Part shown: positions 1,589-63,269 of the stretch, in pieces | Numbering within the stretch: position 1 is the first letter of the stretch | Layout: each line of letters begins with the position of its first letter | Origin: a virus | Length of the DNA stretch: 64,000 bases | Direction: 5' to 3' (one strand) | IMG/VR virus record: IMGVR_UViG_3300045988_103846 | Made by a program: the position numbers and the translations under genes | The notes under the pieces: generated by a model | Database searches by the model: none | Told to the model about the DNA's origin: nothing | The model's input: the letters and a program-made list of their open reading frames with translations, nothing else

Positions 1589-2278
1589 TTACTGTTGTTC
1601 GGGTGTATTAGAAAGATCCTGGAACTCTATCTTAGAAGCCAACAGATCTTCCTGATAATGCTCATAAGGGCTGTATAGAATATTCTCTAGAGGAATCTGC
1701 ATAGATAATACTGAGCCTTCTCCAGGATATATCTCTACAATAGCCGTCTTGTTTGGGTAGTTGAAATCCAGGACCTTTGCAGGCATACCGTCTAGAGGAT
1801 AGCCTCTCATTACCACAAAGTCACCCACATTCACCATCACCTCATCTAAGCTAAAGACTTGATTAGCCCTGCTGAGTCTCATGTAATGTCTAAACTCTTT
1901 CTTAGTGACTGTAGCTACCTTTGAAAAATCATCCCAGTCCTCTGCATTGTCCACTCTTCTTCTCTTTTTCTTAACGTGCATACTATCGAGGGACTTGAGA
2001 AAACTAACTATGCCGGGAATCTCTCTTTTCAAATGAAAGAGGAAATTACGGTTGTAAGCTACCTCTGACCTCATTCTAATAAAGCCATAGTTAAAGAGCA
2101 TAGGGACTTCTTCTACCTCTTTTTTTTGACCCCTGTAAGTCTTCTTCACCATAGTTAGAGTGGGTACAAAGCATTTTATATCCTTGTACCCATGTTCAAC
2201 TAGCTCATGGTTGATATTTCTCCAATCTTTAGTATCTATGCGACATATAGTGTATACGTAAGGGGTCTTCTTTTTCAT
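1589..2278 (-). CDS. NusG/RfaH-like transcription elongation/antitermination factor (NGN + KOW)
   Basis: NGN-like segment YVYTICRIDTKDW...IKCFVPT...VPMLFNYGFIRM. KOW-like segment VGDFVVMRGYPLDGMPAKVLDFNYPNKTAIVEI. The ATG at 2276-2278 overlaps the upstream TGA (TGATG); the track start at 2281 is a GTG. Confidence 0.65.
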   Translation of the reverse strand: MKKKTPYVYTICRIDTKDWRNINHELVEHGYKDIKCFVPTLTMVKKTYRGQKKEVEEVPMLFNYGFIRMRSEVAYNRNFLFHLKREIPGIVSFLKSLDSMHVKKKRRRVDNAEDWDDFSKVATVTKKEFRHYMRLSRANQVFSLDEVMVNVGDFVVMRGYPLDGMPAKVLDFNYPNKTAIVEIYPGEGSVLSMQIPLENILYSPYEHYQEDLLASKIEFQDLSNTPEQQ

Positions 2279-2817
2279 CACAGTAGAGTCTTAGCGTTGA
2301 GGTGAAATTCCTTATAGGGAATGGACTTTAGATCTGATAACATTATGACGGCTAAAGAATCGCCTTTTGGAAAGTCTATCATCATGTGGGGCTTTTTAAA
2401 AGACTTAGTGTATTCATGTATACAGACTTCAAATACTTTCCAATGAATCATAACAAAAGCTTCCCCTTTGGGCATCCCATTATACTTCATGATGAGAATA
2501 GGGAGTTTCTTAGCCCTATTAGCATCTTCTGAAGCCTGCTTCCAGAACCTCAGAATCTTGCAGGTCTTCTTCTGCAAAAGTATATGCTCAAAGTTGAGAT
2601 CTTTATAAGATTTACACTCTACTGAGAAACAAAACCTCCTGGAATGTCTTGTGTCAGTACAAGCTACATCAGAAGTTATGTTCTCGGCATTCTTCCATCT
2701 AAGTCCACCCGATGCTGGCACTCTATTAAACTCATATCCCGTCCATTGGGTGAACCATTTACAGATAGATCTCTCAAATCTACCTCCCTTTTGTTTACTA
2801 TTTACTCTATTAGACAT
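2278..2817 (-). CDS. PD-(D/E)xK nuclease, Holliday-junction-resolvase-like
   Basis: N-terminal KGGRFERSICKWF, then D...ECK (TSDVAC...SVECKSY), i.e. the D/E-x-K arrangement typical of Hjc-like phage resolvases. Confidence 0.55.
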   Translation of the reverse strand: MSNRVNSKQKGGRFERSICKWFTQWTGYEFNRVPASGGLRWKNAENITSDVACTDTRHSRRFCFSVECKSYKDLNFEHILLQKKTCKILRFWKQASEDANRAKKLPILIMKYNGMPKGEAFVMIHWKVFEVCIHEYTKSFKKPHMMIDFPKGDSLAVIMLSDLKSIPYKEFHLNAKTLL

Positions 2818-4560: not shown

Positions 4561-5527
4561 TTTCGCTTTCTTTTATTATGTCTAATAATATGCTCTTCTT
4601 CTTTGGGTCTGCAATACCCTGGTCTTTGAGATACCTTCTGACAATTCTCTTTTTTGAGAGTGATCTTCTGAGAGTGTTCTCTACCTTAGCTTCACTCTGG
4701 GCAACCTTATTGGATATGACCGTATAGTAGTTGCCGTCTTGCTTAATCTGGTCTTCTGAAGTGACATCGATGAACTTAGGGAAAGTGTCAAAAGGGTGGA
4801 ACTTCAAAGTCAGATCCTCATATATGAGCCAGTAACCCAGATCACAGTTCTTGTCAGTCCTTCTCTGCTGCATTGGAGCACCTACCATATATACTTTCTT
4901 GCCCAGTCTCTGGGGTTTATGTATATGGCCTATGAGAGTGAGATCAAATCTATTGAGAAGATTTGTGTTAAGGTTCTCTGAAGTACCCACTTCTGACCCG
5001 TCAGTATCTTTTGCTCCTGGGTAATCTGTATGAAGCAAGAGTATATTCTTCTTGGTAGAACTGAGTTTCAGACCCTGTATGTAGTCATTCAGACCTATAT
5101 TGTGATCTATATGGGGAACCCCGTACACTGCAATATCTTTATTCTCTTTAGACTTGAAATCAAGGTCTTTGATAAAATTATACTGTTTAGACATAACCTC
5201 TACCCAGCTTGGGGGTATAGGTTTTCCCACTTGGACCATCTTAGATATATCATGGTTTCCAGAGATACACCACATATCCCAGGAAGTAATATCTAGTTGT
5301 CCAAAATGTTCCACCACATCTCTGGCAAGACCCAGAGACATGTTCTCTGGCTTATGGAATAAATCCCCACAGAACAAGGCAGGACACCCATACTTCAAGC
5401 ATACCTTCTTAATCAAATAGAGGGCACTGAAATGACTCAGTGTCCTCTGATTGTTCTCGTTGAACTTAGCCCAGTCATTGATATGCAGATCAGAGAAGGC
5501 TAAAGCTATGACTCTTTTCGCTACCAT
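4553..5527 (-). CDS. SbcD/Mre11-like nuclease (T4 gp47-like)
   Basis: Calcineurin-like phosphoesterase motifs in order: FSDLHIND, GDLFH, GNHD, LLLHTD, GHIH. Confidence 0.8.
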   Translation of the reverse strand: MVAKRVIALAFSDLHINDWAKFNENNQRTLSHFSALYLIKKVCLKYGCPALFCGDLFHKPENMSLGLARDVVEHFGQLDITSWDMWCISGNHDISKMVQVGKPIPPSWVEVMSKQYNFIKDLDFKSKENKDIAVYGVPHIDHNIGLNDYIQGLKLSSTKKNILLLHTDYPGAKDTDGSEVGTSENLNTNLLNRFDLTLIGHIHKPQRLGKKVYMVGAPMQQRRTDKNCDLGYWLIYEDLTLKFHPFDTFPKFIDVTSEDQIKQDGNYYTVISNKVAQSEAKVENTLRRSLSKKRIVRRYLKDQGIADPKKKSILLDIIKESEND

Positions 5528-6183
5528 TGCAAGAACTCATTGATTAACCTCATACGCTTCTCATGATCCTGGGTCTCTAGTACTAATATCTGGGTATACT
5601 CTTTTTCTCCTCCAGGGAGAAAAGCTTCCATTGACCATACAGGAGCTTGATCATTACCGATGGTTATTACATCATATAGTTCACACCCCCAGTGACTTAA
5701 CAACCACCCCATCAGGAGAGATACTTCTGTCTGATAGAACTTATTGGATATCCTCTTCCCATTTTGCTCGATCTCCCAATGGTAGAAATATTCTTCAGTG
5801 AAAGGGAGAAATACTGTCTTGGGACATAGAGAAACAGTGAGAATTCGACATTTCTCAATAAAATCTTCTATATCACATTGGGGAAGTCTGTGGGAGAGCT
5901 TCTGTATCATGTAAGCAGCAGAATCTAAGAAAGACCTGTCGCATATAAACTCGGGAGTATTGCGAAACAGCTTTCTCCTGAGAGCCATCAGCTTAGTATC
6001 TTGAGCATAGATAGTCTGAGCATCCTCCATTATCATGGAATTATGTGACATACCTTTAGTAGAGGGGATTAGATCAGAATAACTGCCTGACACAAACGGT
6101 ACATTCCACTGTTCAGACAAAGCTTTTGCTAAGGTAGTTTTCCCTATCCCTGAGCAGCCTGCAAAATTAAGTCTTCTTTCCAT
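5521..6183 (-). CDS. P-loop deoxynucleoside/deoxynucleotide kinase-like protein
   Basis: Walker A GCSGIGKTTLAKAL and a dNK-family (D/E)RS motif FICDRSFLDSAAYM. Confidence 0.55.
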   Translation of the reverse strand: MERRLNFAGCSGIGKTTLAKALSEQWNVPFVSGSYSDLIPSTKGMSHNSMIMEDAQTIYAQDTKLMALRRKLFRNTPEFICDRSFLDSAAYMIQKLSHRLPQCDIEDFIEKCRILTVSLCPKTVFLPFTEEYFYHWEIEQNGKRISNKFYQTEVSLLMGWLLSHWGCELYDVITIGNDQAPVWSMEAFLPGGEKEYTQILVLETQDHEKRMRLINEFLQW

Positions 6184-8592: not shown

Positions 8593-9351
8593 CTAGATAT
8601 CGCTGTGGAACTTCTTTTTCTTCTTGAGCTTCTTCTTCTCCTTCGGCTTCTCTTCTTCCTCTTCATTCTCTCCCTCATTTGAGCCATACAGGAACTCTGA
8701 GAGTTTCTCCTCCAGCTCATCATAAGAAAGCATCTGAGCTCTAAGCTTCTCCTCTATGTCTACCGGCTTGGTATACTTAGGGTCTGGGTTCTTGCCCTTT
8801 GGACAAGCTGTCACTGAATAAGTGGTGTCCATCTTACCCTTGCCAGTTCGGGTAATCTTGATATCGTATCCATCATCTGGATCAGTCATATCACCCCAGT
8901 CATCCTCATCCAGGAAGAGGTCGATGATGTCTTGGTATACCGAGCTTGGGATGAGGATTAGCTTGCCCACCTTCTCTGGATCAACCTCTTTGCCCTTCTC
9001 GTCTTTGTAGACTGTGCCAGCTACGATGTACCTTCTTCTTGGTGAGAGAGTCTTTGCCAGTTCCTGATCATCTGGATCACTAGAACCCTTTAGCTCTTGG
9101 AACTTCTCCATGAACGGGCATGGCTCATTGAATGTAGCTGGTGAAAGAATACCCCCTGTCTTAGAGGAGTAAAATTGAATGATCTCAGCACCTATCTCTT
9201 TGTCTGGTCCCTGAGATACAAGTCTTACCCTCATTGTCCCCTCTTTAGGGAATAAGATACCGTTGCCTGAGCCCCTTTCCTGGAGCTTCTTCTTTCTTTC
9301 CATCATCCTCTCTCGAGTAGTCTTGATGGAGCTTTTCTTTTCTGTCTTCAT
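8593..9351 (-). CDS. ssDNA-binding protein, T4 gp32-like architecture
   Basis: Basic N-terminus, GTMRVRLVSQGPDKE, PCPFMEKF, RRRYIVAGTVYKDEKGKEV...GKLILIPSSVYQDI, acidic stretch EGENEEEEE. Sits between the recombinase and polymerase genes and is followed by a terminator. Confidence 0.55.
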   Translation of the reverse strand: MKTEKKSSIKTTRERMMERKKKLQERGSGNGILFPKEGTMRVRLVSQGPDKEIGAEIIQFYSSKTGGILSPATFNEPCPFMEKFQELKGSSDPDDQELAKTLSPRRRYIVAGTVYKDEKGKEVDPEKVGKLILIPSSVYQDIIDLFLDEDDWGDMTDPDDGYDIKITRTGKGKMDTTYSVTACPKGKNPDPKYTKPVDIEEKLRAQMLSYDELEEKLSEFLYGSNEGENEEEEEKPKEKKKLKKKKKFHSDI

Positions 9352-9362: not shown

Positions 9363-9740
9363 TTAATTGATGTTCGACTCAATGAATATAATCTCTGAAG
9401 CAGAGAGTACATAGAATTTCAAACCTTCAGTGTCTACCTTCTCCTTGAAAGTAGGAAAGATCTCTTTCCCCCCATATTGACCGTACTGGATCACCTGACC
9501 TATTGCCAGAGTATTCCTCCAGAACCTATGATCATCATCAAAGTCCCCGAGAGCAACTATAACCCCTTTCTTGGGAACATCATCTTTTACACTGCCCGGA
9601 ATAAGAAGCCCTGAGTTAGTCTTCTTCTCCTGAGTAGAGATAGCTAATACAATACGATTCTCAGTGGGCTTTCCACAGAGAGTGGAATTCAGATCCTCAG
9701 CCTTAGCGATGCTGATCAAATTGAAATTGATTTGTTCCAT
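9363..9740 (-). CDS. GroES/Cpn10-like co-chaperonin
   Basis: RIVLAISTQEKKTNSGLLIPGSVKDDVPKKGVIVALGD matches the Cpn10 mobile-loop/beta-barrel pattern. 125 aa. Confidence 0.6.
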   Translation of the reverse strand: MEQINFNLISIAKAEDLNSTLCGKPTENRIVLAISTQEKKTNSGLLIPGSVKDDVPKKGVIVALGDFDDDHRFWRNTLAIGQVIQYGQYGGKEIFPTFKEKVDTEGLKFYVLSASEIIFIESNIN

Positions 9741-9787: not shown

Positions 9788-10225
9788 CTACTGTTGCTTT
9801 CTTAAGTTCGCAGACAGAGTCTGAAGGATTCTTTCCCTACTTTCAAAGGCTCTGCATACAGATATTAATTGATTTGCTTGATAAGCTGCTTTCTGATAAG
9901 CCTTATCTGCATATTGGTATCTAGAGTTAGTAGTAGCCTTGTGACTAGCATAATCATTAGTCAACTTGTTATTAGAATCTTTATAGTAAAGCCATAGCTC
10001 TGAGAAGATGGTGTCCCTCTCTTTCTCTAGCTTGTCCCTTTTGCGTATAGCCTTGTCCCTGAGAGTACAGAGAAAAGCATAATTAGAGGGTGAATCTCTC
10101 AGCTGGGAGTTCATCTGTGACTCATCTATAGACAACTCTTTGGTTAGATTTATGGCTAACTTCTCATCATGATAAGTGATCTCCAGGATATCATCCTTGA
10201 TCTGATTTATTTTAACTGTCTCCAT
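9788..10225 (-). CDS. hypothetical protein (helical)
   Basis: 145-aa ORF with ATG start, overlapping the polymerase gene end by 19 nt. No motif recognised. Confidence 0.6.
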   Translation of the reverse strand: METVKINQIKDDILEITYHDEKLAINLTKELSIDESQMNSQLRDSPSNYAFLCTLRDKAIRKRDKLEKERDTIFSELWLYYKDSNNKLTNDYASHKATTNSRYQYADKAYQKAAYQANQLISVCRAFESRERILQTLSANLRKQQ

Positions 10226-12495
10226 TGTTTGCCCTGTTCAAATAATTCTGGAAAATGTTTTGGATAATCTTTGATGGGTATATCTTTGAACTTATGATAT
10301 TCTTCCATATAGGCTTCTACTGAAAAATCTGGCTGAAGCATCTTGCTGTAATCATAGCCAGGGATAAACGGAAGCTCTTCACCCATAGTTCTACCTATCT
10401 CAAAATCCATTGACATATCTACGTCGTTAATCTGGAAATTAAAGTATTCTTTGGTCTTCGGGTTACGGAAAGTGTCCCAAAGTTTCCATATAGTATACAA
10501 ATTGATGTACTTGGGATTCGTATTGTAATATACTGCATCATGCACCGTGCATACCTCATCCATTGGTGGGAAATATCCTCTCTTCATATCCCAATAGTTC
10601 AATATAGCCCCAAACAGAGTCATATGAGAAGCAGCCCCTTGACAAGGAAAGTTAACGGCTAGTCGAATTGCATAAGCAACATCGGCATTGTTCTCTGAAT
10701 ATATTCCAGGAAGTCTTCTCTTGGTTCCAAACAGAGACTTGATATATCCCTGCTTATAAAGCAGTCTCTCTTGAGAACCCATGAACTTCTTGATCCTTGG
10801 ATGCTCTGCAAAATAATCATCCATCATCTGTTGAGCTTCTTCTGGAGTTACTATCAAACCTGCTTTTGGATCCGATAGCTTCACTGACAATAGCTTGGAT
10901 TGAATACCATATATCAAGCCAAACGCAATCTGCTTGGCTTGTTTCCTTCGAGTCTTCCATAGCTTGTAGTCTGGGTGATTCTCATCTCCATATATCTTCT
11001 CGGCTTCATCGTATGGAACTCCATATTTCTGAGCAGCAATGGCTAAGTGTGGATCTTTGTTCTCCCTAAAGGCCTTCAGATAAGTCTCATCTTTAGACAA
11101 ATGAGCCATGATTCTAAGCTCTGCCTGAGAGAAGTCCATCACCAGATATAACTGACCGGGTTTAGCAATAAGTTGCTTTTTGATATTTGGGTCAACAGAA
11201 GTCTTTGGTATCTGCTGCATATTTGGCTCAGCACTAGACAATCTCCCACTCGTTGTGCCATGAAGAAGGAATCTCCCATGTAAACAGTCATCATCTTGTA
11301 CTTTTTCACTCCAGCCTAAGATATAGGTCTTGTACATCTTCTCTAAACCCCTCAGCTCAAGCAATTTATCCAAGAAGACCGCTTTTGGGGAATCTGGTTT
11401 CTTTATTCTCAACCTTAATTCTACTAAAGTATCTTCTGCAGTGCTTGGCTTATCTGTGTCTTTGTAATTCTGTTGAGTGTAAGCTATAATTGGGAGATTT
11501 AGACCCTCTTTAGAATACATGAGAGCCGGTAGATCTTTGTTGCTGTTGAGATTTATGGGTTTTATAAGATCTTGCTCTTTCTGAGTAATAAATATTCCTG
11601 CCCGTATATTTGCAATCTTTGTCTCTCTAGAGGAGATTTTTCTCTTGTCCTTAGGATTATCTGGGTCTAGTTCATCTAACTCTCTTTGAAGCTGATCTAA
11701 ATATGCCTGGATCTTGCCCTGGATATAAATCCCATTAAATTTCTGAACCCTTGGCAAACTGTAAATAGTATCTCTTGCTGCCTGTATCTTTGGCTCATAC
11801 TCTGCTAGAAGCTGCTGATTGAACCCCCTGTCCAGATAAAGCCCATTAGCTTCTACCTCAGTGAGCAGTCTTGATGCGGGCATATACAGATTCCTTAAGA
11901 TATTGTACATCCCTAGATCTATCAACTTCTTCTCAAAGAAGAGAGTCAATCTCAGAGTGCAGTCGGTGTCCATACCAGCATATTTAGATAGAAGATCAAG
12001 AGGCTTCTTGTCCCAATCCATCTTATCAAGGTTGTTCTCTTTCTGATACCCCGCAAACCCTGGAAGATACCTTACAACCATTTCTTTCAGACCGTTGGGT
12101 TTTTCCTCATTGAGGATGTACTTAGCCAGCATCCCATCAAGAAGAGTTCCCTTACATTGAATACCAAACTTCTTGTTGATCTGATCATCAAACTTAGCAT
12201 TCCAAGCTATCTTGGTAACTTTCAGATTCTGAAATAATTCTTTCCCCACCATCTGAAGAGCTTTCTTCCAATCAAACCCATCAGTGTATTTATCTCTCTC
12301 AAAGTGATCAAGAGGAATCTGCACTGAAGACCCTACTTGAAAAGTTATTGAAAGCAGAGTAGGGGTGAAAGTGTGCATATATAGGGGTTGAGCATTGGTC
12401 TCATAGTCAAAACAACAATATCCAGTCTCTTTACAAGACTGGATAACTTTTTTGACTTCCTCTAAACTCTTAACTATGTAGTAACTAGACCTCAT
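10207..12495 (-). CDS. family A DNA polymerase with 3'-5' exonuclease domain
   Basis: Exo I CCFDYETN, Exo II AWNAKFD, Exo III YAGMDTD. Pol motif A VMDFSQAELRIMAHLS, motif B RRKQAKQIAFGLIYG, motif C CTVHDAVYY. Confidence 0.9.
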   Translation of the reverse strand: MRSSYYIVKSLEEVKKVIQSCKETGYCCFDYETNAQPLYMHTFTPTLLSITFQVGSSVQIPLDHFERDKYTDGFDWKKALQMVGKELFQNLKVTKIAWNAKFDDQINKKFGIQCKGTLLDGMLAKYILNEEKPNGLKEMVVRYLPGFAGYQKENNLDKMDWDKKPLDLLSKYAGMDTDCTLRLTLFFEKKLIDLGMYNILRNLYMPASRLLTEVEANGLYLDRGFNQQLLAEYEPKIQAARDTIYSLPRVQKFNGIYIQGKIQAYLDQLQRELDELDPDNPKDKRKISSRETKIANIRAGIFITQKEQDLIKPINLNSNKDLPALMYSKEGLNLPIIAYTQQNYKDTDKPSTAEDTLVELRLRIKKPDSPKAVFLDKLLELRGLEKMYKTYILGWSEKVQDDDCLHGRFLLHGTTSGRLSSAEPNMQQIPKTSVDPNIKKQLIAKPGQLYLVMDFSQAELRIMAHLSKDETYLKAFRENKDPHLAIAAQKYGVPYDEAEKIYGDENHPDYKLWKTRRKQAKQIAFGLIYGIQSKLLSVKLSDPKAGLIVTPEEAQQMMDDYFAEHPRIKKFMGSQERLLYKQGYIKSLFGTKRRLPGIYSENNADVAYAIRLAVNFPCQGAASHMTLFGAILNYWDMKRGYFPPMDEVCTVHDAVYYNTNPKYINLYTIWKLWDTFRNPKTKEYFNFQINDVDMSMDFEIGRTMGEELPFIPGYDYSKMLQPDFSVEAYMEEYHKFKDIPIKDYPKHFPELFEQGKQWRQLK

Positions 12496-12513: not shown

Positions 12514-12589
12514 GGAGAGTCTAGGGGATTCGAACCCCTATCTGGTGATCTCTATATCAGCCCGCCCTACCATTTAAGCGAAGACTCTC
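12514..12589 (-). tRNA. tRNA-like gene with a non-canonical anticodon arm (anticodon not assignable)
   Basis: The minus strand reads GAGAGTCTTCGCTTAAATGGTAGGGCGGGCTGATATAGAGATCACCAGATAGGGGTTCGAATCCCCTAGACTCTCC. Acceptor stem is perfect (AGAGTCT/AGACTCT). U8, A14, G18G19 and A21 are present. D stem is GCTT/GGGC. T arm is perfect: AGGGG-TTCGAAT-CCCCT. The anticodon region folds only as TGAT/ATCA with a 6-nt loop, or as a mismatched 5-bp stem with an 8-nt loop. No CCA is encoded. Confidence 0.6.
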
Positions 12590-12647: not shown

Positions 12648-13436
12648 TTACCCTTGCATCAATTGAGCAATTGATGTCTTTAGAAGAACCCAGTCCTTCT
12701 TATAGACATGCAGAGAGTCAATTGTGTGAATCAAATACCCAGGCTTAACCCCCACTTTCTCAGCTACATACTCCATCATCTTCCACGCAAGCCATACATC
12801 ATTACCGAAGTGCTGAACAAAGTCTGAGCTTCTCTGATGATAACATAGGTTCAATTGAGTCTCACCCTTTGCATTCTCTCTGAGAAGGAAGTCATAGTAC
12901 ATAGAGCAAGGGATTCTATGACTTCCATCAAGATAATCATGATCCATAGCCCCAGACTGTCTGTAGCCACCGTATATGTCTAATATAGCTTTTCTAGTTC
13001 CAGGGTCATCTTTGAGAAGTCTGATAATGGCCTCTAATTTTGTCATCATACTTCGGTTGTAAGATACAGTATCGTTAATCCTCTCTGGATATGTATAGTC
13101 AAACTTCTCTAACCCATATACATTCTTTGTAAGGAACTGATCCCACATCTCTCTTCTCAAGAGATAGGCCTTTCCCGGATTTACTCCGTGTCCACAAACT
13201 CTCTCTGCAAACTCGGCTTCAGCCCATTCCTTAGACTTAGTGTGAATGAACAGGATATCTGGATCAGGAAGCTCCATGAGAGTATATTGCTCGCACATCA
13301 ACTCTTTGGTGATGAAGTCATCATTACCCTCAATGTTCTTGTTCTGATAATGCTTGGGCCTGTTTTCGATACCCATCTCATACAAGTTACGACCCATCTC
13401 TGACATGAGTTCGTAAGCATTTGAATAAATACGCAT
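12648..13436 (-). CDS. ThyA-superfamily enzyme, dCMP-hydroxymethylase-like (paralog 1)
   Basis: LLKDDPGTRKAIL (cf. ThyA NDPDSRR), catalytic-Cys segment HRIPCSMYYDF (cf. APCH), LCYHQRSSDFVQHFGNDVW (cf. YQRSxDxxxGxPFN; Asp 8 residues after the RSxD Asp, as in T4 gp42), DSLHVY (cf. D/GxxHxY). Confidence 0.7.
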   Translation of the reverse strand: MRIYSNAYELMSEMGRNLYEMGIENRPKHYQNKNIEGNDDFITKELMCEQYTLMELPDPDILFIHTKSKEWAEAEFAERVCGHGVNPGKAYLLRREMWDQFLTKNVYGLEKFDYTYPERINDTVSYNRSMMTKLEAIIRLLKDDPGTRKAILDIYGGYRQSGAMDHDYLDGSHRIPCSMYYDFLLRENAKGETQLNLCYHQRSSDFVQHFGNDVWLAWKMMEYVAEKVGVKPGYLIHTIDSLHVYKKDWVLLKTSIAQLMQG

Positions 13437-13448
13437 AATATTAAAAAA

Positions 13449-14201
13449 TTAAAACAGTTGACAATCTTTAGCAAGTGTCTTTGGATATTTATATAGTTCA
13501 GGGTGCAATACTTTGGCAGCTCGTCTATGCACTTTGTACTTTATATCCTCTGGGTTGGTCTCAAGCATCTTGTTTAGCTGTGCAAGAAGTTTCTCTTTTC
13601 TTGCCCCTGATTTATCTTTGAAGAGTTTTCTTAAGTCCTTATGGGCATGATACATTAGCAGCACGGCATCATCCTGGAACAATTGATTGAAATGGATAAC
13701 TAGCCTGAATGGCTGGCCATCATATACATACTCGCCCATTCTCTGGAAGAAGAGTAAGTCTACTATCAATCTCTTAGTCACTTCTGAAGCTCTTAAAAAT
13801 ACTGTAACTGTGGGTTTCTCTTCACTGAATCTCTTAGAGAATATCATAGAAAGGAGACAGTTCTTACCATGTCCATGTTTGTTGGTGAACTGCATAGCAA
13901 TGTTGTATACTTTCTTGCCACAAGACTTAACCTCTTCTTTCACAGACTCAAGCTCACCTTTATCTAAGTAATTAGATACCAGGGTCTTCCATTTGTTAAT
14001 AGTATAGTTGAAATGCCTACCAAAGTCAAAGTTAGGGTCAACCTGGGGATTAGTTATACCCAAAATGACATCATAGACATATAGAGCCTTAGAATCAAAA
14101 CGAAAGTGAAAGGGGCCCTCCCCCTTGAGAAAGGCCTCGTTCACTTCTTCCCAAGCTCTCATGGAATCAGAAGTCCAGAGAGCAGTGTCAACTTTAATCA
14201 T
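13449..14201 (-). CDS. divergent ThyA/dCMP-hydroxymethylase-fold protein (paralog 2)
   Basis: Clear paralog of the next ORF (VDPNFDFGRHFNYTINKW... vs FDPEFDFGKIMGYSQGKW...). GHGKNCLLSMIF (candidate Cys) and VFLRASEVTKRLIVDLLFF align with the C...QRSxD...N/D core. Start set to the ATG at 14201 (MIKVDT); the track start at 14225 is a GTG. Confidence 0.45.
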   Translation of the reverse strand: MIKVDTALWTSDSMRAWEEVNEAFLKGEGPFHFRFDSKALYVYDVILGITNPQVDPNFDFGRHFNYTINKWKTLVSNYLDKGELESVKEEVKSCGKKVYNIAMQFTNKHGHGKNCLLSMIFSKRFSEEKPTVTVFLRASEVTKRLIVDLLFFQRMGEYVYDGQPFRLVIHFNQLFQDDAVLLMYHAHKDLRKLFKDKSGARKEKLLAQLNKMLETNPEDIKYKVHRRAAKVLHPELYKYPKTLAKDCQLF

Positions 14202-15192
14202 CGGACTCTTCGTTGTCAAACTCACCCTTAGTCGGATCCTCTACCAAAGAGCCATCTGATTCCTTAAACTTGATAAGCTTTCGTTTTTGAACTTCATCCG
14301 CGAAAGCGTCCAAGTTATATTTCTGAATGAACTTAGTATAGGCTTTCTTGATATTGTTCCTGACCAAGATGGAAGGACATCCTCCCTTAGGCATAGGAAT
14401 TCCATCCCAATCTCCGATGATGCAGTCTTTGGCTTTGAGAGACTTGACTTCTTTTCCATATTTCTCTGGATTAAAGATTTTGTATACTCGAGTGTAAGCC
14501 TGATACCCCGGGTCAGTACCGGCATCGGCTGCAGCCCTAACATTTTTGAGAGCTTTTTTGAGTCTCTTCCGGCGATCTTCATTCTCAATGCCCTTGATTA
14601 GAGGCTCTATATCCTCATAACCATTGTAGAGCATGATAGAGATGTCATCAGCAAAAGCAGATCTAAGGAATAACTCAATTGAGAAGTCCTCATGACCGTA
14701 TACATATAAACCCATACGACAAGCAAGAAGAAGATCCCAAGGAAGTCTAGTGACTACATCAGAAGCCCTCATAACTACAGTAAGTCTCGGCTTGTCAACA
14801 TAGATCATTCGGGAGAATACTCCAGAGACTAAGCATCCCTTGCCGTTGCCATGGGCATCTGCAAAGTTGAAGCCTATATGGTAATTCCTGTTGACAGACT
14901 TGTTCTTCTCAAGTTCCCTGATCTGACTCTTTAGTACATCCATAGCATCAAGGTCAAGGTAGTTATTCAAGAGTGAGCTCCATTTACCCTGACTATAGCC
15001 CATGATCTTACCAAAATCAAACTCGGGGTCGAATTTAGCTTCATTTATGAGAACGGTCATCCCATAAGTGTAAAGTGAACCAGTTATAGCAGCCCCCTGA
15101 CCCTCTTCAAAGAGTTCAGGAGCTTGATTCAAGAAGAGCTTGATGATATTTTCCCAAGCATCTACTGGATTTTGAAAGGTGTAACTTTTCAT
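14194..15192 (-). CDS. divergent ThyA/dCMP-hydroxymethylase-fold protein (paralog 3, acidic C-terminal extension)
   Basis: GNGKGCLVSGVF and VVMRASDVVTRLPWDLLL align with the ThyA/gp42 core C...(Q/M)R(A)SD......(W)D. About 90 extra C-terminal residues ending EFDNEESDD. Confidence 0.45.
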   Translation of the reverse strand: MKSYTFQNPVDAWENIIKLFLNQAPELFEEGQGAAITGSLYTYGMTVLINEAKFDPEFDFGKIMGYSQGKWSSLLNNYLDLDAMDVLKSQIRELEKNKSVNRNYHIGFNFADAHGNGKGCLVSGVFSRMIYVDKPRLTVVMRASDVVTRLPWDLLLACRMGLYVYGHEDFSIELFLRSAFADDISIMLYNGYEDIEPLIKGIENEDRRKRLKKALKNVRAAADAGTDPGYQAYTRVYKIFNPEKYGKEVKSLKAKDCIIGDWDGIPMPKGGCPSILVRNNIKKAYTKFIQKYNLDAFADEVQKRKLIKFKESDGSLVEDPTKGEFDNEESDD

Positions 15193-15201
15193 ATTGTTTT
15201 G

Positions 15202-16092
15202 TTAATAGTTGCTTCTGATACGGAAAGCATTGGCTTCGTGTTTTTTGAAATAAATCTGATAGAGAGTCTCAGAATCAAGGTTGAGATATCGGAAAGCTCC
15301 CATCATAGCAATGAAGGCTTTCACTATCTCTTCTTGGAAGTGAATCTCATCAGTCATCATCTGTGACTGTTTCCAAGGCTTGTTCTTGAGAAAGTTTCTG
15401 GCGATATTTAGATGATAGGTCACATCCCATAAGCATTTCTTAGTCTCTAGATAGAGAGAGTGACTGTATACACTGCCCGCCTGGTAAAGAACTGGACTAC
15501 CAATCTCATCCCAAGTCAAAGGAGCAGATACAGATTCAACCAGACTAGTTAACAGGTTTACAGGATGAATAGCTCCATCTAACTCATTATCTCCCACTAG
15601 TTGGTAGAGGCCGAACATCATAGCTTCATTGAGAATATCTGTTTCCTCTTCCTTGAAGAACTGAAGATACTCTTTATCGTAAGCTTTGAGGATATACTTA
15701 TGAATATCTTCGGGCTGAATGTTGACATAAATCAGAAGCTCTGTCATGAAGTGCATAGCATCAGCAAACTCTTCACTGACATTCTGAAGATGATCAATGC
15801 ACATGATAGCTTGATTCTTGGTATACTCACCCTGCCAGTACTTTGTCTCTATAGATATCTTGTCTATGAGAATCATGGATTCATAGCCCTCTCCGAGCTC
15901 TTCAATGACCCTGCCAACAAAATCCTTTATGAGTACTTGGCTCTTCTTGGGATTCACATTGATGGGGTAAGGAGGTAAACCCTCAATTTTAACGTAATGA
16001 TCTATGAGCTCTTTTTGAAGCTCATAGATTTTCTCCAAGTACCTGTGATCTTTTACTTCAGGTGCGATTGCTTTGATGTCTCTGGCATCCAT
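15202..16092 (-). CDS. all-alpha (dimeric dUTPase / dCTPase-like) NTP pyrophosphatase
   Basis: YLEKIYELQKELIDHY, VIEELGEGYE, VSEEFADAMHFMTELL, FLKNKPWKQSQ, YFKKHEANAFRIRSNY. This is the pattern of the dimeric dUTPase (dUTPase_2)/MazG-like superfamily. Confidence 0.6.
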   Translation of the reverse strand: MDARDIKAIAPEVKDHRYLEKIYELQKELIDHYVKIEGLPPYPINVNPKKSQVLIKDFVGRVIEELGEGYESMILIDKISIETKYWQGEYTKNQAIMCIDHLQNVSEEFADAMHFMTELLIYVNIQPEDIHKYILKAYDKEYLQFFKEEETDILNEAMMFGLYQLVGDNELDGAIHPVNLLTSLVESVSAPLTWDEIGSPVLYQAGSVYSHSLYLETKKCLWDVTYHLNIARNFLKNKPWKQSQMMTDEIHFQEEIVKAFIAMMGAFRYLNLDSETLYQIYFKKHEANAFRIRSNY

Positions 16093-16098
16093 TTTTCT

Positions 16099-16668
16099 TT
16101 ACTTTTTATCTGTTGAACCGAAGCCACCTTCTCCTCTATCTGAGTTAGAAGATATTTCGATATAATCATCATGGCTGATCTCAACCATTTGAGATAAATA
16201 GAGATCCAGATGCAAGAATTGTCCTATCTTATCACCCTCTTTGAAGATTACCTCTTTTTCTGAGTTGTTCTGAAGCCCCATGTGAACTTCCCCTGTATAG
16301 TCGGCATCTACTACCTGAGCCGTAACGGTGAGACCCTTGTTGGCAGCAAGACCTGATTTATTGAAAGCCACAAGAGCGGACTGCTTATTCTGAATCCATA
16401 CCTTAATACCGGATGGAATGAGAACTCTATTGAAAGCGGGGATCTTGATAAAGCAGTCTTTGCCGTTTTCCCCAAAGAGAGCAGCCCATTTTTCCCGGAT
16501 AGTTCCATAATGAGGATTCTTCTCAAAGAAGTCCTCCATGAAAGTACTTGTCAATGTGGGTAAGAAGAAATCTATCCCAGCATCGTGTTGATTAGCCCTC
16601 CTGGGGCTCCTAACATCCCTTACCTTTGTGAAGAAGATGTCATTGAGTGAAAGTTGAGTTGGTACCAT
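16099..16668 (-). CDS. dut: trimeric dUTP pyrophosphatase
   Basis: All five dUTPase motifs in order: AGIDFF, IPSGIKV, VVDADYTGEV, GDKIGQF, RGEGGFGST. There is an insertion between motifs 1 and 2. Confidence 0.85.
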   Translation of the reverse strand: MVPTQLSLNDIFFTKVRDVRSPRRANQHDAGIDFFLPTLTSTFMEDFFEKNPHYGTIREKWAALFGENGKDCFIKIPAFNRVLIPSGIKVWIQNKQSALVAFNKSGLAANKGLTVTAQVVDADYTGEVHMGLQNNSEKEVIFKEGDKIGQFLHLDLYLSQMVEISHDDYIEISSNSDRGEGGFGSTDKK

Positions 16669-16669
16669 T

Positions 16670-17074
16670 TTAACTCTGTTGTTTTTTGGGTTTATATTTT
16701 TTGTACAGCTGTTTAGCCTCCTCTTCTGTTACTCCATATTTGGCCTGGAGCTTCTGTCGTATGATCTTTCGATCTTCCCCCTTTCTCTGAAGTGCCCTGA
16801 TAGTCTTCTTGACAGCTGGAATATCAACTAAGATCTCAAGATCTTTGTAATTATTCTCTTTTTCCAGCTCTTTTCTAGTTTTGCCCATCATTGCAGCAAA
16901 CTTGATGCAGCATAACTCTGAGTCACCACACATCTGGCAATCTTCAGTTGTGAGATCATACTTCTTCCCAAAGCAGGGATCTCCATTGTCACCTATTGAG
17001 TTTATATCAATGGGTTTCAGGGGATCCAACTGAACCGGGAGATTCTTTGGATTAGATTTTTCCTTCTGTTTCAT
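16670..17074 (-). CDS. hypothetical Cys-rich protein
   Basis: 134-aa ORF with ATG start. Contains CFGKKYDLTTEDCQMCGDSELCC, a possible metal-binding cluster. Confidence 0.6.
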   Translation of the reverse strand: MKQKEKSNPKNLPVQLDPLKPIDINSIGDNGDPCFGKKYDLTTEDCQMCGDSELCCIKFAAMMGKTRKELEKENNYKDLEILVDIPAVKKTIRALQRKGEDRKIIRQKLQAKYGVTEEEAKQLYKKYKPKKQQS

Positions 17075-17989: not shown

Positions 17990-18325
17990 TTACCTATGGT
18001 CTCCAGAACCTCCAATTTTCCCCCTTTCGGCTCTGGAGTGGAGTTTTTCATAATTCATCTGGGCCACATCTTCTAAGGTATAACCACACTCCTTGGCCAA
18101 CATAGCGATATACCAGAGGCAATCTCCAGCCTCATACATAAGTTCACGCAGTTTTTCCGGATTGCAAACCCCGTTGTCGTCACGGAATATCTTCTTTACC
18201 TTATTCGCCACCTCTCCGGCCTCTCCGGTCAGCCCAAGAGAGCAGTAAGTGATTGCCAGGAACTGATTCGGCCTGCTATAATTGGACGTCTCCTGGGCTT
18301 TTTCCTGATATTCATTTAACTTCAT
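17990..18325 (-). CDS. mazG: MazG-like nucleoside triphosphate pyrophosphohydrolase
   Basis: LGLTGEAGEVANKVKK and YEAGDCLWYIAMLA (the EExxE...ExxD-type MazG helices), C-terminal YEKLHSRAERGKIGGSGDHR. ATG at 18325; the track start at 18331 is a TTG. Confidence 0.75.
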   Translation of the reverse strand: MKLNEYQEKAQETSNYSRPNQFLAITYCSLGLTGEAGEVANKVKKIFRDDNGVCNPEKLRELMYEAGDCLWYIAMLAKECGYTLEDVAQMNYEKLHSRAERGKIGGSGDHR

Positions 18326-18441
18326 ATTCAACTGTTTTGAATTAATAGGTTTTTGGCAATTAATTCTGTACCTCTTGCAATTTTCTTTCTATATAACAAA
18401 TATGGGTGCTTCATACAGTATCTAAACAGCCACTCTGTCTA

Positions 18442-30620: not shown

Positions 30621-30654
30621 GATGATTCTGTTTTTAGAAAAAATTAGAAGATGA

Positions 30655-30672
30655 GAGGGGTTTCGCCCCCTC
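30655..30672 (-). terminator. GC-rich hairpin between the two BACON-repeat genes (weak terminator candidate)
   Basis: GAGGGG-TTTCGC-CCCCTC. On the minus strand the T-run begins about 10 nt after the stem. Confidence 0.35.
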
Positions 30673-30688
30673 CCACCTTATGACAGTC

Positions 30689-62201: not shown

Positions 62202-63269
62202 TTATTTCTTTCTCTTTTTAGAAAGGGTTTGGGAAAACCTTTTTCTCTTTCTTTTTTCTTTCTTTCTCTTGTCTAAGGCTGATCTCAAGCAGCTTCTCAA
62301 CCAAAGCCCGATCTCATATACAGCTCCCTTTGAGAGAGCATTTCTCCCCTTGTTCAGCCAATAGGTGGGATTAGACTCATCAAACCAGACCTTGAACCTC
62401 TTAGGGAATCCCATTATGACTCTGAACTCCTCAAGACCCATAGGCCACCCCTCTGGGTTGAACTGCCTATTTGAAGGTCTAAGAGTGAGAGGGGGAGCCC
62501 AGTTCCTGTTTCTGTATACTCCGGGGAGGGTTTTCATCTTCTGGGTTCTCATTGGCCACTTAAACTCTTGCTTGAACTTCCCATTCCATAGCTCATGTAC
62601 TTCATCTACAGTCAAAGTAGTTCTATTTGGGTCCCAATACTTGTACATTGACAGCTTTCTATCCCCCGTTTCTCGGTAGTTTAGCTCGGGTCTAATCATC
62701 CCAGAGATGTCACAGGTAAGGAATCTTTCACGCCTCCCAGAGAAAATTCTAGAGAAATATTTTTCAAATTCAGTGGAATCAGCTCGTATTCCCACTAATA
62801 GAAGCCTCTTTCTCGAAGTTTGGGAATTACCAAATGCCGAAACTGAATGGGAATGGACTATAAACTTGTACCCAGGCAAATTTGCTTCCCACTCGGGCAG
62901 TGGAATTAGGTCTAAGAGCTTCGGAAGATTCTCCATGACAAAGATTCTGGGTGTAAATTTTTTGACACATGACAGGAAAAGGTTCAAACATACGTCTTCA
63001 CGGGGTTTCCCAAGGGTCTTTTTTCTCGAGTAAGAGAAAACAGAGCTGTGACCACAGGAGGGAGACCCCACAATCATGTCTGGGCTATCAATTTTCAGAG
63101 CATCAAGACTTTTTACAAACGGTACTTCCCCGAAATTCAGTCTCCACTGCTCTTCGTTTGGGGTATGAAACACCCCTCGAGGCTCGATGTTACCGATCAG
63201 CCATCTTCTCAACGGGTACAGAAGAGCTCCTTGAGCTCCACAGACACCCAAAATCTTCCAGTTTTGCAT
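62202..63269 (-). CDS. DNA (cytosine-5)-methyltransferase-like protein with a K/R-rich tail
   Basis: Motif I-like ILGVCGAQGAL, motif IV-like VGSPSCGHSS (cf. GPPCQ), motif VI-like FVMENLPKL (cf. ENV), motif VIII-like GNSQTSRKRLLLVG (cf. QxRxR). ATG at 63269 (MQNWK); the track start at 63350 is a TTG. Confidence 0.6.
   Translation of the reverse strand: MQNWKILGVCGAQGALLYPLRRWLIGNIEPRGVFHTPNEEQWRLNFGEVPFVKSLDALKIDSPDMIVGSPSCGHSSVFSYSRKKTLGKPREDVCLNLFLSCVKKFTPRIFVMENLPKLLDLIPLPEWEANLPGYKFIVHSHSVSAFGNSQTSRKRLLLVGIRADSTEFEKYFSRIFSGRRERFLTCDISGMIRPELNYRETGDRKLSMYKYWDPNRTTLTVDEVHELWNGKFKQEFKWPMRTQKMKTLPGVYRNRNWAPPLTLRPSNRQFNPEGWPMGLEEFRVIMGFPKRFKVWFDESNPTYWLNKGRNALSKGAVYEIGLWLRSCLRSALDKRKKEKRKRKRFSQTLSKKRKK

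What the first reader, a model, noticed from the sequence alone, without database searches (positions are those of the whole stretch)
12648..16668. Three tandem ThyA/dCMP-hydroxymethylase-fold paralogs inside an NTP-pyrophosphatase cluster: candidate pre-replicative pyrimidine hypermodification pathway
Seen in sequence:
- Three consecutive genes (12648-13436, 13449-14201, 14194-15192) carry the core of the thymidylate-synthase fold.
- The first has DPGTRKAIL, IPCSMYYDF, YHQRSSDFVQHFGNDVW and DSLHVY.
- The other two are clear paralogs of each other (FDFG..(N/G)Y..(N/G)KW, GHGKNCLLS / GNGKGCLVS, LRASEVTKRLIVD / MRASDVVTRLPWD).
- In all three, the residue 8 positions after the RS(x)D/E acid is Asp (GND, IVD, PWD).

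Established knowledge: in ThyA that position is the Asn that reads uracil. In T4 dCMP hydroxymethylase it is Asp, and an Asn-to-Asp swap shifts ThyA toward dCMP.

Neighbouring genes:
- An all-alpha dimeric-dUTPase/dCTPase-like NTPase (15202-16092).
- A canonical trimeric dUTPase (16099-16668).
- A MazG (17990-18325).
- A dNK-like P-loop kinase further left (5521-6183).
This is the logic of the T4 gp56/gp42/gp1 route: dNTP to dNMP, C5 modification, re-phosphorylation.

Inference: the phage may replace a pyrimidine, probably cytosine, with a C5-modified base. The two divergent paralogs may catalyse a different or additional transfer, or act as non-catalytic partners; a three-paralog arrangement is not one I know as described.

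Caveats: my alignments are by eye. A C5 cytosine methyltransferase elsewhere in the window (62202-63269) would be redundant if all cytosines were pre-modified.
Basis: partly seen in the sequence, partly recalled or inferred. Interest (0 to 1): 0.8.

Follow-up and report, generated by a model that had tools for sequence, protein, structure and literature searches.

The report
Undescribed thymidylate-synthase-fold enzymes in cytosine-modification module
An uncultured human-gut phage carries, next to its DNA polymerase, a T4-like gene set for altering deoxycytidine before DNA synthesis. The set includes two copies of an unnamed, very divergent thymidylate-synthase-fold enzyme family, and the same set recurs in distant and even cultured phages, so a possibly new DNA base chemistry can now be tested directly.

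Summary
Gene A (12648-13436) is a complete ThyA-family enzyme. It has Asp at the E. coli N177 discriminator, as T4 dCMP hydroxymethylase and the Xp12 dCMP methylase do.

Genes B and C are paralogs (34% identity) with no Pfam or NCBIfam match. A confident AlphaFold model of C matches only ThyA-superfamily structures. Across 104 diverse family members the five invariant residues include the Cys, Arg and Asp that align with ThyA C146, R166 and N177.

A is a distant superfamily relative of B and C, not a recent paralog.

The order dUTPase-D-C-B-A-PolA holds in 81 related gut-phage contigs. The core trio is a gp56-family NTP pyrophosphatase, a B/C-family gene and an A-family gene. This trio recurs in very distant phages, including cultured Clostridium perfringens phages (CPD4 group) and Microbacterium phage Triscuit. 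Triscuit also has a canonical ThyA, and an uncultured Manatee Spring phage genome (MW202455) with the same trio has a ThyX, so in those phages the pair is not needed for dTMP synthesis.

Best reading: pre-replicative C5 modification of dCMP, with B/C as a second catalytic ThyA-fold component whose reaction is unknown.

"Hypermodification" is unsupported because no tailoring genes were found. A C5 DNA methyltransferase and avoidance of CCGG/GGCC argue against full cytosine replacement.

I rate this a new variant of a known kind.

The parts
12648..13436 (-). Gene A: complete ThyA-family enzyme of the dCMP type (262 aa)
   Evidence: - PF00303 E 1.8e-15; phrog_160 E 1e-25.
- Model pLDDT 93. Foldseek top hit is MilA CMP hydroxymethylase (E 1.7e-14, TM 0.70), followed by ThyAs and AfhB.
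- Alignment with real E. coli ThyA, T4 gp42 and Xp12 TS keeps W80, Y94, R126, C146 (=C177), R166/S167/D169 (=R202/S203/D205), H207 and Y209.
- N177 is Asp (D213). L143 is Arg (R174).
13449..14201 (-). Gene B: member of an undescribed ThyA-fold family. It is 250 aa from the ATG at 14201, or 258 aa from the alternative GTG start at 14225.
   Evidence: - 34% identical to C, E 7e-44.
- Found by profiles built only from distant clades (A4 E 1.8e-21, A5 E 9e-34).
- Keeps C123, R145, S147, E148 and D156.
- Its ATG overlaps the stop region of C.
14194..15192 (-). Gene C: second member of the same family (332 aa), with a low-confidence acidic tail
   Evidence: - AF2 model pLDDT 85, pTM 0.82.
- Foldseek PDB hits are exclusively ThyA superfamily. 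In BFVD, after two uncharacterised proteins at 64% and 32% identity to C and a PMBT14 protein, the significant hits are almost all ThyA or gp42 homologs.
- Family invariants are K70, Y78, C120, R142 and D153.
15202..16092 (-). Gene D: all-alpha dimeric-dUTPase/dCTPase-family NTP pyrophosphatase (296 aa), the candidate dCTPase
   Evidence: - PF08761 E 3.3e-8; phrog_12184 and phrog_173.
- T4 gp56 dCTPase hits the same Pfam family and aligns with D at its C-terminus, E 7e-4.
- D homologs (phmmer 1e-19 to 1e-27) lie immediately upstream of, or within one small ORF of, the first B/C gene in seven distant loci.
16099..16668 (-). Gene E: trimeric dUTPase (189 aa)
   Evidence: - PF00692 E 6e-14; TIGR00576 E 5.6e-22.
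- Conserved at this position in related gut-phage loci.
- Because a dUTPase is already present, D probably has a different substrate (inference).
17990..18331 (-). MazG-like pyrophosphatase (113 aa), near the cluster
   Evidence: - PF03819 E 5e-10; phrog_229 E 4e-36.
- Not detected by tblastn in the flanks of the 81 relatives' loci analysed, so its link to the pathway is weak.
5521..6183 (-). P-loop kinase (220 aa), a candidate dNMP kinase for re-phosphorylation
   Evidence: - AAA_28 E 4e-10; phrog_2107 'thymidylate kinase' E 9e-8.
- It lies 6.5 kb from the cluster.
- It is not detectably similar to the ~170-aa kinases adjacent to the module in distant phages.
10207..12495 (-). Family A DNA polymerase, directly downstream of the cluster; it would have to accept the modified dNTP
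   Evidence: - ORF of 762 aa. Relatives' copies carry DNA_pol_A_exo1 and DNA_pol_A domains.
- PolA follows the module closely downstream (within 0-5 intervening genes) in gut, Clostridium, Microbacterium and environmental phages.
62202..63269 (-). C5 cytosine DNA methyltransferase (context; it argues against complete C5 pre-modification)
   Evidence: - PF00145 E 6e-10.
- Motifs 'PSC' and 'ENL'.
- Conserved in relatives.

Best explanation
The block E-D-C-B-A, just upstream of PolA, is a pre-replicative deoxycytidylate-modification module of the T4/Xp12 type. The proposed steps are:

1. D, which belongs to the family of T4 gp56 dCTPase, hydrolyses dCTP to dCMP. This both removes the canonical precursor and supplies substrate. 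(Family membership is shown; the substrate is inferred.)
2. A is a full ThyA-family enzyme with every catalytic residue and Asp at the uracil/cytosine discriminator. It adds a one-carbon unit from methylene-tetrahydrofolate to C5 of dCMP, giving 5-methyl- or 5-hydroxymethyl-dCMP. (The residues are shown; the product is inferred and uncertain, because the position that usually separates methyl from hydroxymethyl products is an Arg.)
3. B and C are duplicated members of an undescribed, strongly diverged ThyA-fold family. The family keeps the Cys nucleophile, the phosphate-binding Arg, an acidic residue at the D169 position and Asp at the N177 position. It appears to have lost about 50 residues of the region that in ThyA carries E58.
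   - They are most likely catalytic, using covalent Cys-C6 chemistry on a cytosine nucleotide.
   - Their obligatory pairing with an A-type enzyme suggests one of two roles. They may carry out a second step on A's product, for example re-forming the exocyclic methylene from 5-hydroxymethyl-dCMP and capturing another nucleophile. Alternatively they may form a hetero-oligomer with A.
   - The overlapping B and C genes would suit a B-C heterodimer.
   - This step is inference only.
4. A P-loop kinase and host NDP kinase return the product to the triphosphate level, and the phage PolA incorporates it. (Inferred.)
For: **Fold and active-site residues**
- A.
- C.
- B/C family invariants K70, Y78, C120, R142 and D153, plus E145 in at least 90% of 104 sequences whose mean column identity is 18%.
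- Both the B clade and the C clade keep these residues.

**Sequence-level links between B/C and the ThyA superfamily**
- The only significant PDB hit of the family profile is AfhB, a ThyA-fold dCMP hydroxylase (E 1.7e-4).
- hhalign places Cys, Arg and Asp in register with A.
- The family HMM hits A-type proteins of other phages at E 1e-5 to 5e-4. It ranks window gene A as its best non-self hit.

**Conserved gene context**
- 81 of 81 related gut-phage loci keep D-C-B-A-PolA, apart from contig truncations.
- The trio of dUTPase_2-family, B/C-family and A-family genes is adjacent in distant clades:
  - L082, L085, L087, L089, L090 and L091;
  - L092 to L095;
  - Clostridium phage CPD4 and nine relatives;
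  - Microbacterium phage Triscuit;
  - MW202455.
- Triscuit also has a canonical ThyA (PF00303, E 4e-123) and MW202455 has a ThyX. In those phages the A plus B/C pair is therefore not needed for dTMP synthesis.

**Literature**
- Asp at N177 confers dCMP preference (PMC13326640, citing Hardy & Nalivaika 1992 and Liu & Santi 1992).
- ThyA(N177D) with a deaminase-family gene, PRA-PH and PolA is the typical neighbourhood on metavirome contigs with modified cytosine (bioRxiv 10.1101/2024.12.05.627091).

**D and T4 gp56 share a family**.
Against: - There is no chemical evidence that the virion DNA is modified.
- A C5 cytosine DNA methyltransferase is conserved in the genome. It would be useless on DNA fully substituted at C5.
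- CCGG (z -4.8) and GGCC (z -3.2) are under-represented. This suggests cytosines in those sites are, or recently were, exposed to restriction.
- A has Arg at the L143 position. That matches neither the hydrophobic (methyl) nor the acidic (hydroxymethyl) pattern, and Xp12 has Asn there, so the product cannot be read from sequence.
- No phage DHFR, dCMP deaminase or ThyX was found in this lineage.
- The window's kinase is not adjacent to the module and is not homologous to the module kinases of other phages.
- Structural similarity of C to solved ThyA-fold proteins is moderate (TM 0.3-0.53), and profile-profile probability is low (10%).
- The mapping of B/C residues W71 and Y78 onto ThyA W80 and Y94 rests on a zero-confidence part of an hhalign alignment.
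Confidence: 0.55

Rival explanations
1. B and C are non-catalytic ThyA-fold partners (pseudo-enzymes). They bind A, D or the replisome to channel nucleotides, as in the T4 dNTP-synthetase complex, or they regulate A. Only A does chemistry, producing simple 5-methyl- or 5-hydroxymethyl-dC.
For: - B/C lack any PF00303 signal.
- They appear to lack about 50 residues of the ThyA N-terminal half that carries E58 (secondary-structure comparison).
- They always accompany an A-type enzyme.
- ThyA-fold proteins are obligate dimers (established knowledge), so heteromers are plausible.
Against: - The five residues invariant across 104 very diverse members include the exact counterparts of the ThyA nucleophile Cys, the phosphate Arg and the base-reading position. 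Pseudo-enzymes normally lose these.
- Both duplicated copies keep them.
Confidence: 0.17
2. B and C are flavin-dependent 5-hydroxy-dCMP synthases like AfhB and RB69 gp48. The phage would then carry 5-hydroxycytosine-based DNA.
For: AfhB (9iqc/9iqu) is the nearest characterised relative of the B/C family. This holds both by sequence profile (E 1.7e-4, the only significant PDB hit) and among the top three by Foldseek.
Against: - The diagnostic D169N substitution of all tested 5hodCMP synthases (PMC13326640) is absent. B has Glu and C has Asp there, and Glu is present in at least 90% of the family.
- The reaction needs O2. This phage comes from human faeces, and cultured carriers of the module infect the anaerobe Clostridium perfringens.
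- No glycosyltransferase or sugar-activation genes were found.
Confidence: 0.07
3. The cluster only manages nucleotide pools: dUTP and dCTP sanitation, and dTMP supply through non-canonical thymidylate synthases. The virion DNA is canonical apart from site-specific methylation by the C5 methyltransferase.
For: - The C5 DNA methyltransferase is conserved.
- C-containing palindromes are avoided.
- No other thymidylate synthase was seen in this lineage, so one of the three could supply dTMP.
- In Xp12-like phages a dCMP methylase plus a deaminase makes dTTP.
Against: - All three proteins have Asp, not Asn, at the discriminator. In ThyA that substitution disfavours dUMP.
- Triscuit and MW202455 carry a canonical ThyA or ThyX in addition to the pair.
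- This lineage has no deaminase to turn 5-methyl-dC nucleotides into dT nucleotides.
Confidence: 0.16

Closest known systems
Phage T4 dCTPase (gp56) / dCMP hydroxymethylase (gp42) / dNMP kinase (gp1) pathway
   Same: - D shares the NTP-pyrophosphatase family PF08761 with gp56.
- A is a ThyA-family enzyme with Cys, RSxD and Asp at the N177 position, matching gp42 D179.
- A P-loop kinase is present.
- The module is encoded beside the replication genes.
   Different: - A has Arg where gp42 has Asp145 (Ec L143).
- An extra, obligatory ThyA-fold family (B/C) is present, here in two copies.
- No glucosyltransferases were found.
- A C5 DNA methyltransferase coexists with the module.
- The polymerase is family A rather than family B.
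Xanthomonas phage Xp12-type dCMP methylase with 5mC-selective deaminase (mSCD), as in MetaGPA 'modified cytosine' contigs
   Same: - A ThyA homolog with N177D sits next to an all-alpha NTP-PPase and PolA.
- In distant carriers of the B/C family, a dCMP-deaminase-family gene follows, as described for modified contigs.
   Different: - No B/C-family gene was detected in the 50 kb of Xp12 that were examined, which include its nucleotide-metabolism cluster.
- The window lineage has no deaminase and no DHFR.
- Xp12 TS has Asn at L143, whereas A has Arg.
AfhB / RB69 gp48 flavin-dependent 5-hydroxy-dCMP synthases (ThyA fold)
   Same: - They are the closest characterised relatives of B/C by profile and by structure.
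- They are also the best PDB sequence hit of A (E 1.6e-7).
- They are short ThyA-fold proteins with Asp at the N177 position.
   Different: - The signature D169N is absent in A, B and C.
- The habitat is anaerobic.
- There is no arabinosylation or glycosylation cluster.
MilA CMP 5-hydroxymethylase (mildiomycin pathway)
   Same: - It is the top Foldseek hit for both A (TM 0.70) and C.
- It has Asp at the discriminator.
   Different: MilA acts on the ribonucleotide CMP in antibiotic biosynthesis. It has Asp at L143 and is not linked to a dCTPase or a polymerase.

Membership tests
Thymidylate synthase / dCMP hydroxymethylase family (Pfam PF00303): gene A | Matches the family HMM above the curated cut-off | tested here: met
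   57.2 bits against a cut-off of 24.3, E 1.8e-15. All 120 listed homologs carry PF00303.
Thymidylate synthase / dCMP hydroxymethylase family (Pfam PF00303): gene A | Catalytic Cys146, R166-S167-x-D169, Y94, W80, R126, H207 and Y209 (E. coli numbering) | tested here: met
   All are conserved in alignments with real E. coli ThyA, T4 gp42 and Xp12 TS. The E58 equivalent is probably E75 or E78, but the alignment is ambiguous there.
dCMP-specific branch (T4 gp42, Xp12 TS, MilA): gene A | Asp instead of Asn at the Ec N177 position | tested here: met
   D213 aligns with T4 D179 and the Xp12 Asp. It is invariant in 30 family members.
Hydroxymethylase versus methylase sub-type: gene A | Acidic residue (hydroxymethyl) or hydrophobic residue (methyl) at Ec L143 | tested here: not met
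   R174 is invariant in the A family and in distant A-type proteins. Xp12 has Asn there, so the rule is not decisive.
5-hydroxy-dCMP synthase (AfhB, RB69 gp48, DLP3 gp80): A, B and C | Asn at Ec D169 (D169N signature, PMC13326640) | tested here: not met
   A has D205, B has E148 and C has D145. Glu is found in at least 90% of the B/C family.
ThyA-fold superfamily: B and C | Three-dimensional fold | tested here: met
   - AF2 model of C: pLDDT 85, pTM 0.82.
- All top-50 PDB hits are ThyA superfamily, E 2e-6 to 1e-3, TM to target up to 0.53.
- BFVD gives the same picture.
- B is assigned by 34% identity to C.
ThyA-fold superfamily: B and C | Sequence membership in PF00303 | tested here: not met
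   0 of 104 family members hit PF00303 at E<=0.01. There is no NCBIfam hit. The only PHROG match is a weak one to phrog_34294, of unknown function.
ThyA-fold superfamily: B and C | Nucleophile Cys, phosphate Arg and base-reading residue in register | tested here: met
   C120, R142 and D153 are invariant in 104 sequences. They align with A's C177, R202 and D213. The alignment probability is low (1.5-10%), but the same register was obtained from two independent profiles.
ThyA-fold superfamily: B and C | Folate-site and general-base elements (E58, W80, W83, Y94) | tested here: inconclusive
   - C has about 30 residues where A has about 80, between the N-terminal hairpin and the helix preceding the central sheet.
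- A zero-confidence hhalign extension suggests W71 = W80 and Y78 = Y94.
T4-type pre-replicative dC replacement pathway | dCTP-specific pyrophosphatase | tested here: inconclusive
   D shares family PF08761 with gp56, and a separate dUTPase exists. Substrate specificity cannot be read from sequence.
T4-type pre-replicative dC replacement pathway | dNMP kinase that accepts the modified nucleotide | tested here: inconclusive
   A P-loop kinase lies at 5521-6183 (AAA_28; PHROG 'thymidylate kinase'). It is not adjacent to the module and not similar to the module-linked kinases elsewhere.
T4-type pre-replicative dC replacement pathway | Non-canonical cytosine in virion DNA | not testable with these tools
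   This needs LC-MS/MS of nucleosides or nanopore signal analysis.

The most novel reading that the evidence does not exclude
[quoted passage not shown] It would work together with a dCMP-type ThyA homolog and perform a C5 (or C5-substituent) transformation on a deoxycytidine nucleotide that no known phage pathway makes. That would give a previously unknown cytosine derivative in the DNA of abundant human-gut phages, Clostridium perfringens phages and actinobacteriophages.
Probability: 0.3. Interest if true: 0.85.

Novelty: new variant of a known kind. Interest (0 to 1): 0.68.

Why it matters
Non-canonical pyrimidines made by ThyA-superfamily enzymes are the entry point of many known phage pyrimidine hypermodifications. 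A flavin-dependent hydroxylating branch was added to this superfamily only in 2025-2026.

Here a further branch emerges. It has no Pfam or NCBIfam model. It keeps the catalytic Cys, Arg and Asp, and it is genetically locked to a dCMP-type ThyA homolog and a gp56-family pyrophosphatase across phages of Bacteroidota/Firmicutes-type gut communities, Clostridium and Microbacterium.

Several carriers are in culture: the CPD4/CP3/Clo-PEP-1 group and Triscuit/Huwbert. The question 'what base do they make?' can therefore be answered at once by nucleoside LC-MS and by the established in vivo assay.

The answer matters in three ways:
- for restriction and CRISPR evasion;
- for sequencing bias in gut viromics;
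- for enzyme tools used in epigenetic sequencing.

Tried and rejected
- **DNA search of phage genomes.** Megablast of the cluster against 50,697 phage genomes found nothing. This lineage is uncultured, and only three metagenomic records share the B/C protein at high identity.
- **First B/C profile against PDB.** The profile of close homologs (A1) gave only noise. The AfhB hit appeared only after distant representatives were added (A3).
- **BLASTP of A against C.** No similarity was found.
- **Clade-Y alignment (A5) for locus retrieval.** The attempt failed for lack of a conserved stretch. It was replaced by exact-protein look-ups.
- **Literature searches.** Searches for PDB code 9IQU, for MT121964, for Flandersviridae with thymidylate synthase, for the C. 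perfringens phages and for Microbacterium phages returned nothing on this family or on DNA modification in its carriers. The Aravind jumbo-phage survey mentions the TS superfamily only in general terms.
- **'A is an ordinary thymidylate synthase'.** Considered and rejected, because A has Asp213 and because Triscuit carries an additional canonical ThyA next to its A-like gene.
- **'B/C are O2-dependent hydroxylases'.** Considered and given low weight, because the D169N signature is missing and the hosts are anaerobic.
- **Promoter and terminator scan of the cluster.** Nothing exceeded the shuffled expectation.
- **Pseudomonas phage PMBT14.** Its protein was the third BFVD hit. I could not locate it in the phage collection with distant family queries.

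Full report
**1. What is in the sequence**

The region lies in a minus-strand replication module of an uncultured phage. The window has about 40% G+C. Near-identical contigs of 62-79 kb come from human-gut metagenomes. GenBank relatives come from human faeces.

The tightly packed genes, in order of transcription, are:
- E, a trimeric dUTPase (16099-16668);
- D (15202-16092);
- C (14194-15192);
- B (13449-14201, or 14225 from GTG);
- A (12648-13436);
- a tRNA-Ile(TAT);
- a family A DNA polymerase (10207-12495).

Gaps between genes are 6-12 nt. B's ATG overlaps the end of C (GATGATTAA).

**2. Gene A**

A is a genuine ThyA-family enzyme:
- PF00303, E 1.8e-15;
- phrog_160 'thymidylate synthase', E 1e-25;
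- AlphaFold model with pLDDT 93;
- Foldseek top hit MilA CMP hydroxymethylase (E 1.7e-14, TM 0.70), followed by many ThyAs and AfhB.

I fetched the real E. coli ThyA, T4 gp42 and Xp12 TS sequences and aligned them with A.
- A keeps W80, Y94, R126, C146 (C177), R166/S167/D169 (R202/S203/D205), H207 and Y209.
- At N177 it has Asp (D213), exactly as T4 D179 and the Xp12 enzyme do.
- Asp at this position is the established determinant of dCMP preference (Hardy & Nalivaika 1992 and Liu & Santi 1992, as summarised in PMC13326640).
- The D169N signature of flavin-dependent 5-hydroxy-dCMP synthases is absent.
- At L143, whose character is thought to separate methyl from hydroxymethyl products, A and all A-type relatives have Arg. 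T4 has Asp and Xp12 has Asn. The product cannot therefore be predicted.

**3. Genes B and C**

They are paralogs: 34% identity over 247 residues, E 7e-44. They have no Pfam or NCBIfam match and only a weak hit to an unknown-function PHROG.

*Size and diversity of the family.* Homolog searches found 175 and 101 cluster representatives. An exhaustive profile search of 1.8 billion representatives found only 258 proteins at E<=1e-3. The family is therefore small and distinct, not a fringe of ThyA. In a 104-sequence alignment with 18% mean column identity:
- the invariant residues are K70, Y78, C120, R142 and D153 (C numbering);
- N17, Y66, W71, L74, F110, L121 and E145 are conserved in at least 90%.

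*Structure.* The AlphaFold model of C is confident (pLDDT 85, pTM 0.82). All of its top 50 PDB matches are ThyA-superfamily proteins: MilA, AfhB, T4 dCMP hydroxymethylase and many ThyAs. E-values run from 2.4e-6 to 1e-3, and TM reaches 0.53 on the target. In BFVD the first two hits are uncharacterised proteins at 64% and 32% identity to C. The next hits are an uncharacterised PMBT14 protein and then ThyA and gp42 homologs.

*Sequence-level support.*
- The broad family profile has a single significant PDB hit, AfhB (E 1.7e-4).
- hhalign against the A family aligns C120 with C177, R142-A-S-D145 with R202-S-S-D205, and D153 with D213. The probability is low, but the register is the same from two profiles.
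- The family HMM hits A-type proteins in other phages at E 1e-5 to 5e-4. It ranks window gene A as its best non-self hit.
- An automated pipeline had already labelled one family member 'pyrimidine hmase synthase' in GenBank MW202455.

*Differences from ThyA.* No member matches PF00303. Comparison of predicted secondary structure suggests about 50 residues are missing from the part of ThyA that carries the E58 helix. Whether W71 and Y78 correspond to W80 and Y94 is only hinted at.

*Status of the two copies.* Both the B clade and the C clade keep every core residue. Neither looks like a decayed copy.

**4. Comparative genomics: the most informative result**

In 81 IMG/VR loci of the same lineage, with C identity down to 49%, the order helicase-F134-dUTPase-D-C-B-A-PolA is kept. 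Departures are small: contig ends, one locus with no detectable dUTPase (E) match, a short extra ORF in about 20 loci, and one locus with a rearranged B region.

In very distant family members (15-22% identity to C) the same core appears: a PF08761-family pyrophosphatase homologous to D (phmmer 1e-19 to 1e-27), then a B/C-family gene, then an A-family gene (A-profile E 1e-42 to 1e-64).
- **Environmental ~45-kb phage contigs**. The core is preceded by a 170-aa P-loop kinase and followed by a ligase, a dCMP-deaminase-family gene and a UDG-PolA fusion.
- **Metagenomic contigs L092 to L095**. L094 has two B/C genes, which is an independent duplication.
- **Ten cultured Clostridium perfringens phages** (CPD4, CP3, Clo-PEP-1, CPAS-15, P21 and others).
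- **Microbacterium phages Triscuit and Huwbert**. The gene order was examined in Triscuit only.
- **Spring-water phage MW202455**.

Triscuit has, besides its B/C-like gp64 and A-like gp66, a canonical ThyA (gp67; PF00303, E 4e-123) and a dCMP deaminase. MW202455 has a ThyX. In those phages dTMP synthesis is therefore covered independently, and the A plus B/C pair must serve another purpose.

This neighbourhood (ThyA with N177D, a PRA-PH-type pyrophosphatase, a deaminase-family gene and PolA) is the one reported as characteristic of metavirome contigs with modified cytosines (bioRxiv 10.1101/2024.12.05.627091). In the 50 kb of Xp12 examined, which hold its TS, deaminase and DHFR genes, no B/C gene was detected.

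**5. Mechanism proposed**

*Shown*
- D is in the same family as T4 gp56 dCTPase.
- A separate dUTPase exists.
- A is a complete dCMP-type ThyA-family enzyme.
- B/C are ThyA-fold proteins with a conserved Cys, Arg, acidic residue and Asp.
- The D, B/C and A genes co-occur wherever the flanks were long enough to check, in about 100 loci of diverse phages.

*Inferred*
- D makes dCMP from dCTP.
- A adds a C1 unit to C5.
- B/C perform covalent Cys-C6 chemistry on dCMP or on A's product. One possibility is that they regenerate the exocyclic methylene from 5-hydroxymethyl-dCMP and trap a different nucleophile, which would need no folate site.
- Alternatively, B/C act as a heteromeric partner of A.
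- The duplicated and translationally coupled B and C may form a heterodimer.
- A kinase and PolA complete the route.

I put 0.55 on the general model of pre-replicative dC modification with catalytic B/C.

**6. Evidence against, and rival readings**

- A C5 cytosine DNA methyltransferase is present (PF00145; motifs PSC and ENL) and is conserved in relatives.
- CCGG, GGCC, CATG and CTAG are under-represented.
- Both observations are hard to reconcile with complete, protective C5 substitution. Partial substitution, or a modification that does not block those enzymes, remains possible.
- No tailoring enzymes, DHFR, deaminase or ThyX were found in the window's replication module or in the flanking genome of near-identical relatives. 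'Hypermodification' is therefore not supported.
- The rivals are: non-catalytic partner (0.17), pool management only (0.16) and AfhB-like hydroxylase (0.07). They are set out in the dedicated section of this report.

**7. Novelty**

The pathway logic is that of T4 and Xp12, which is a known kind. The new element is the B/C family: an unmodelled branch of the ThyA superfamily, obligatorily coupled to a dCMP-type ThyA homolog, widespread, and here duplicated.

I found no description of it in the searchable literature. The absence of a paper is not proof.

Cultured carriers exist, so the question is directly testable.

Verdict: new variant of a known kind; interest 0.68.

Noticed in passing
window 12514-12588 (-): A tRNA-Ile with anticodon TAT lies between the DNA polymerase gene and gene A.
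   Followed up: no
whole window: CpG is strongly depleted (observed/expected 0.39). CTAG, CATG, CCGG, TGCA, GGCC and ATGCAT are under-represented relative to a maximal-order Markov expectation. This could reflect host-like dinucleotide bias, restriction avoidance or 5mC deamination.
   Followed up: partly
window 62202-63269 (-); L104 and L105 8779-9846: The C5 cytosine DNA methyltransferase has unusual catalytic motifs: 'GSPSCGHS' instead of PCQ, and 'ENL' instead of ENV. It is conserved beside the head-gene block in relatives. Its target site and its relation to the dCMP-modification module are unknown.
   Followed up: partly
L102 1-1379 and L103 1-1377 (relatives of window 10207-12495): The PolA gene of near-identical relatives carries an intein (L102). 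In L103 it is split by a DUF559-type insertion. The window's PolA (762 aa) is uninterrupted.
   Followed up: no
L094 1272-2129 and 3562-4413: An unrelated metagenomic phage contig also has two B/C-family genes. They flank the A-type gene and a dCMP deaminase, so duplication of this family happened more than once.
   Followed up: partly
L082, L089 and L090 (about 11.1-13.7 kb): The DNA polymerase A of the distant module-bearing phages has an N-terminal uracil-DNA-glycosylase-like domain (seen by reading the translations). This matches the UDG-PolA fusions described in bioRxiv 10.1101/2025.03.26.645540 (listed).
   Followed up: no
window 30001-32000: G+C rises to 0.50 against about 0.40 elsewhere. 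The rise coincides with the 550-aa ORF at 30689-32341 in the structural region.
   Followed up: no
window 9363-9740, 8593-9351, 1589-2281 (-): The replication module also encodes a GroES-like Cpn10, a gp32-like ssDNA-binding protein and a NusG-domain protein.
   Followed up: no
window 16670-17074 (-): A 134-aa Cys-rich, lysine-rich protein has no family match. It is conserved directly upstream of the dUTPase in all related loci long enough to show it (78 of 81). Whether it belongs to the module is unknown.
   Followed up: no
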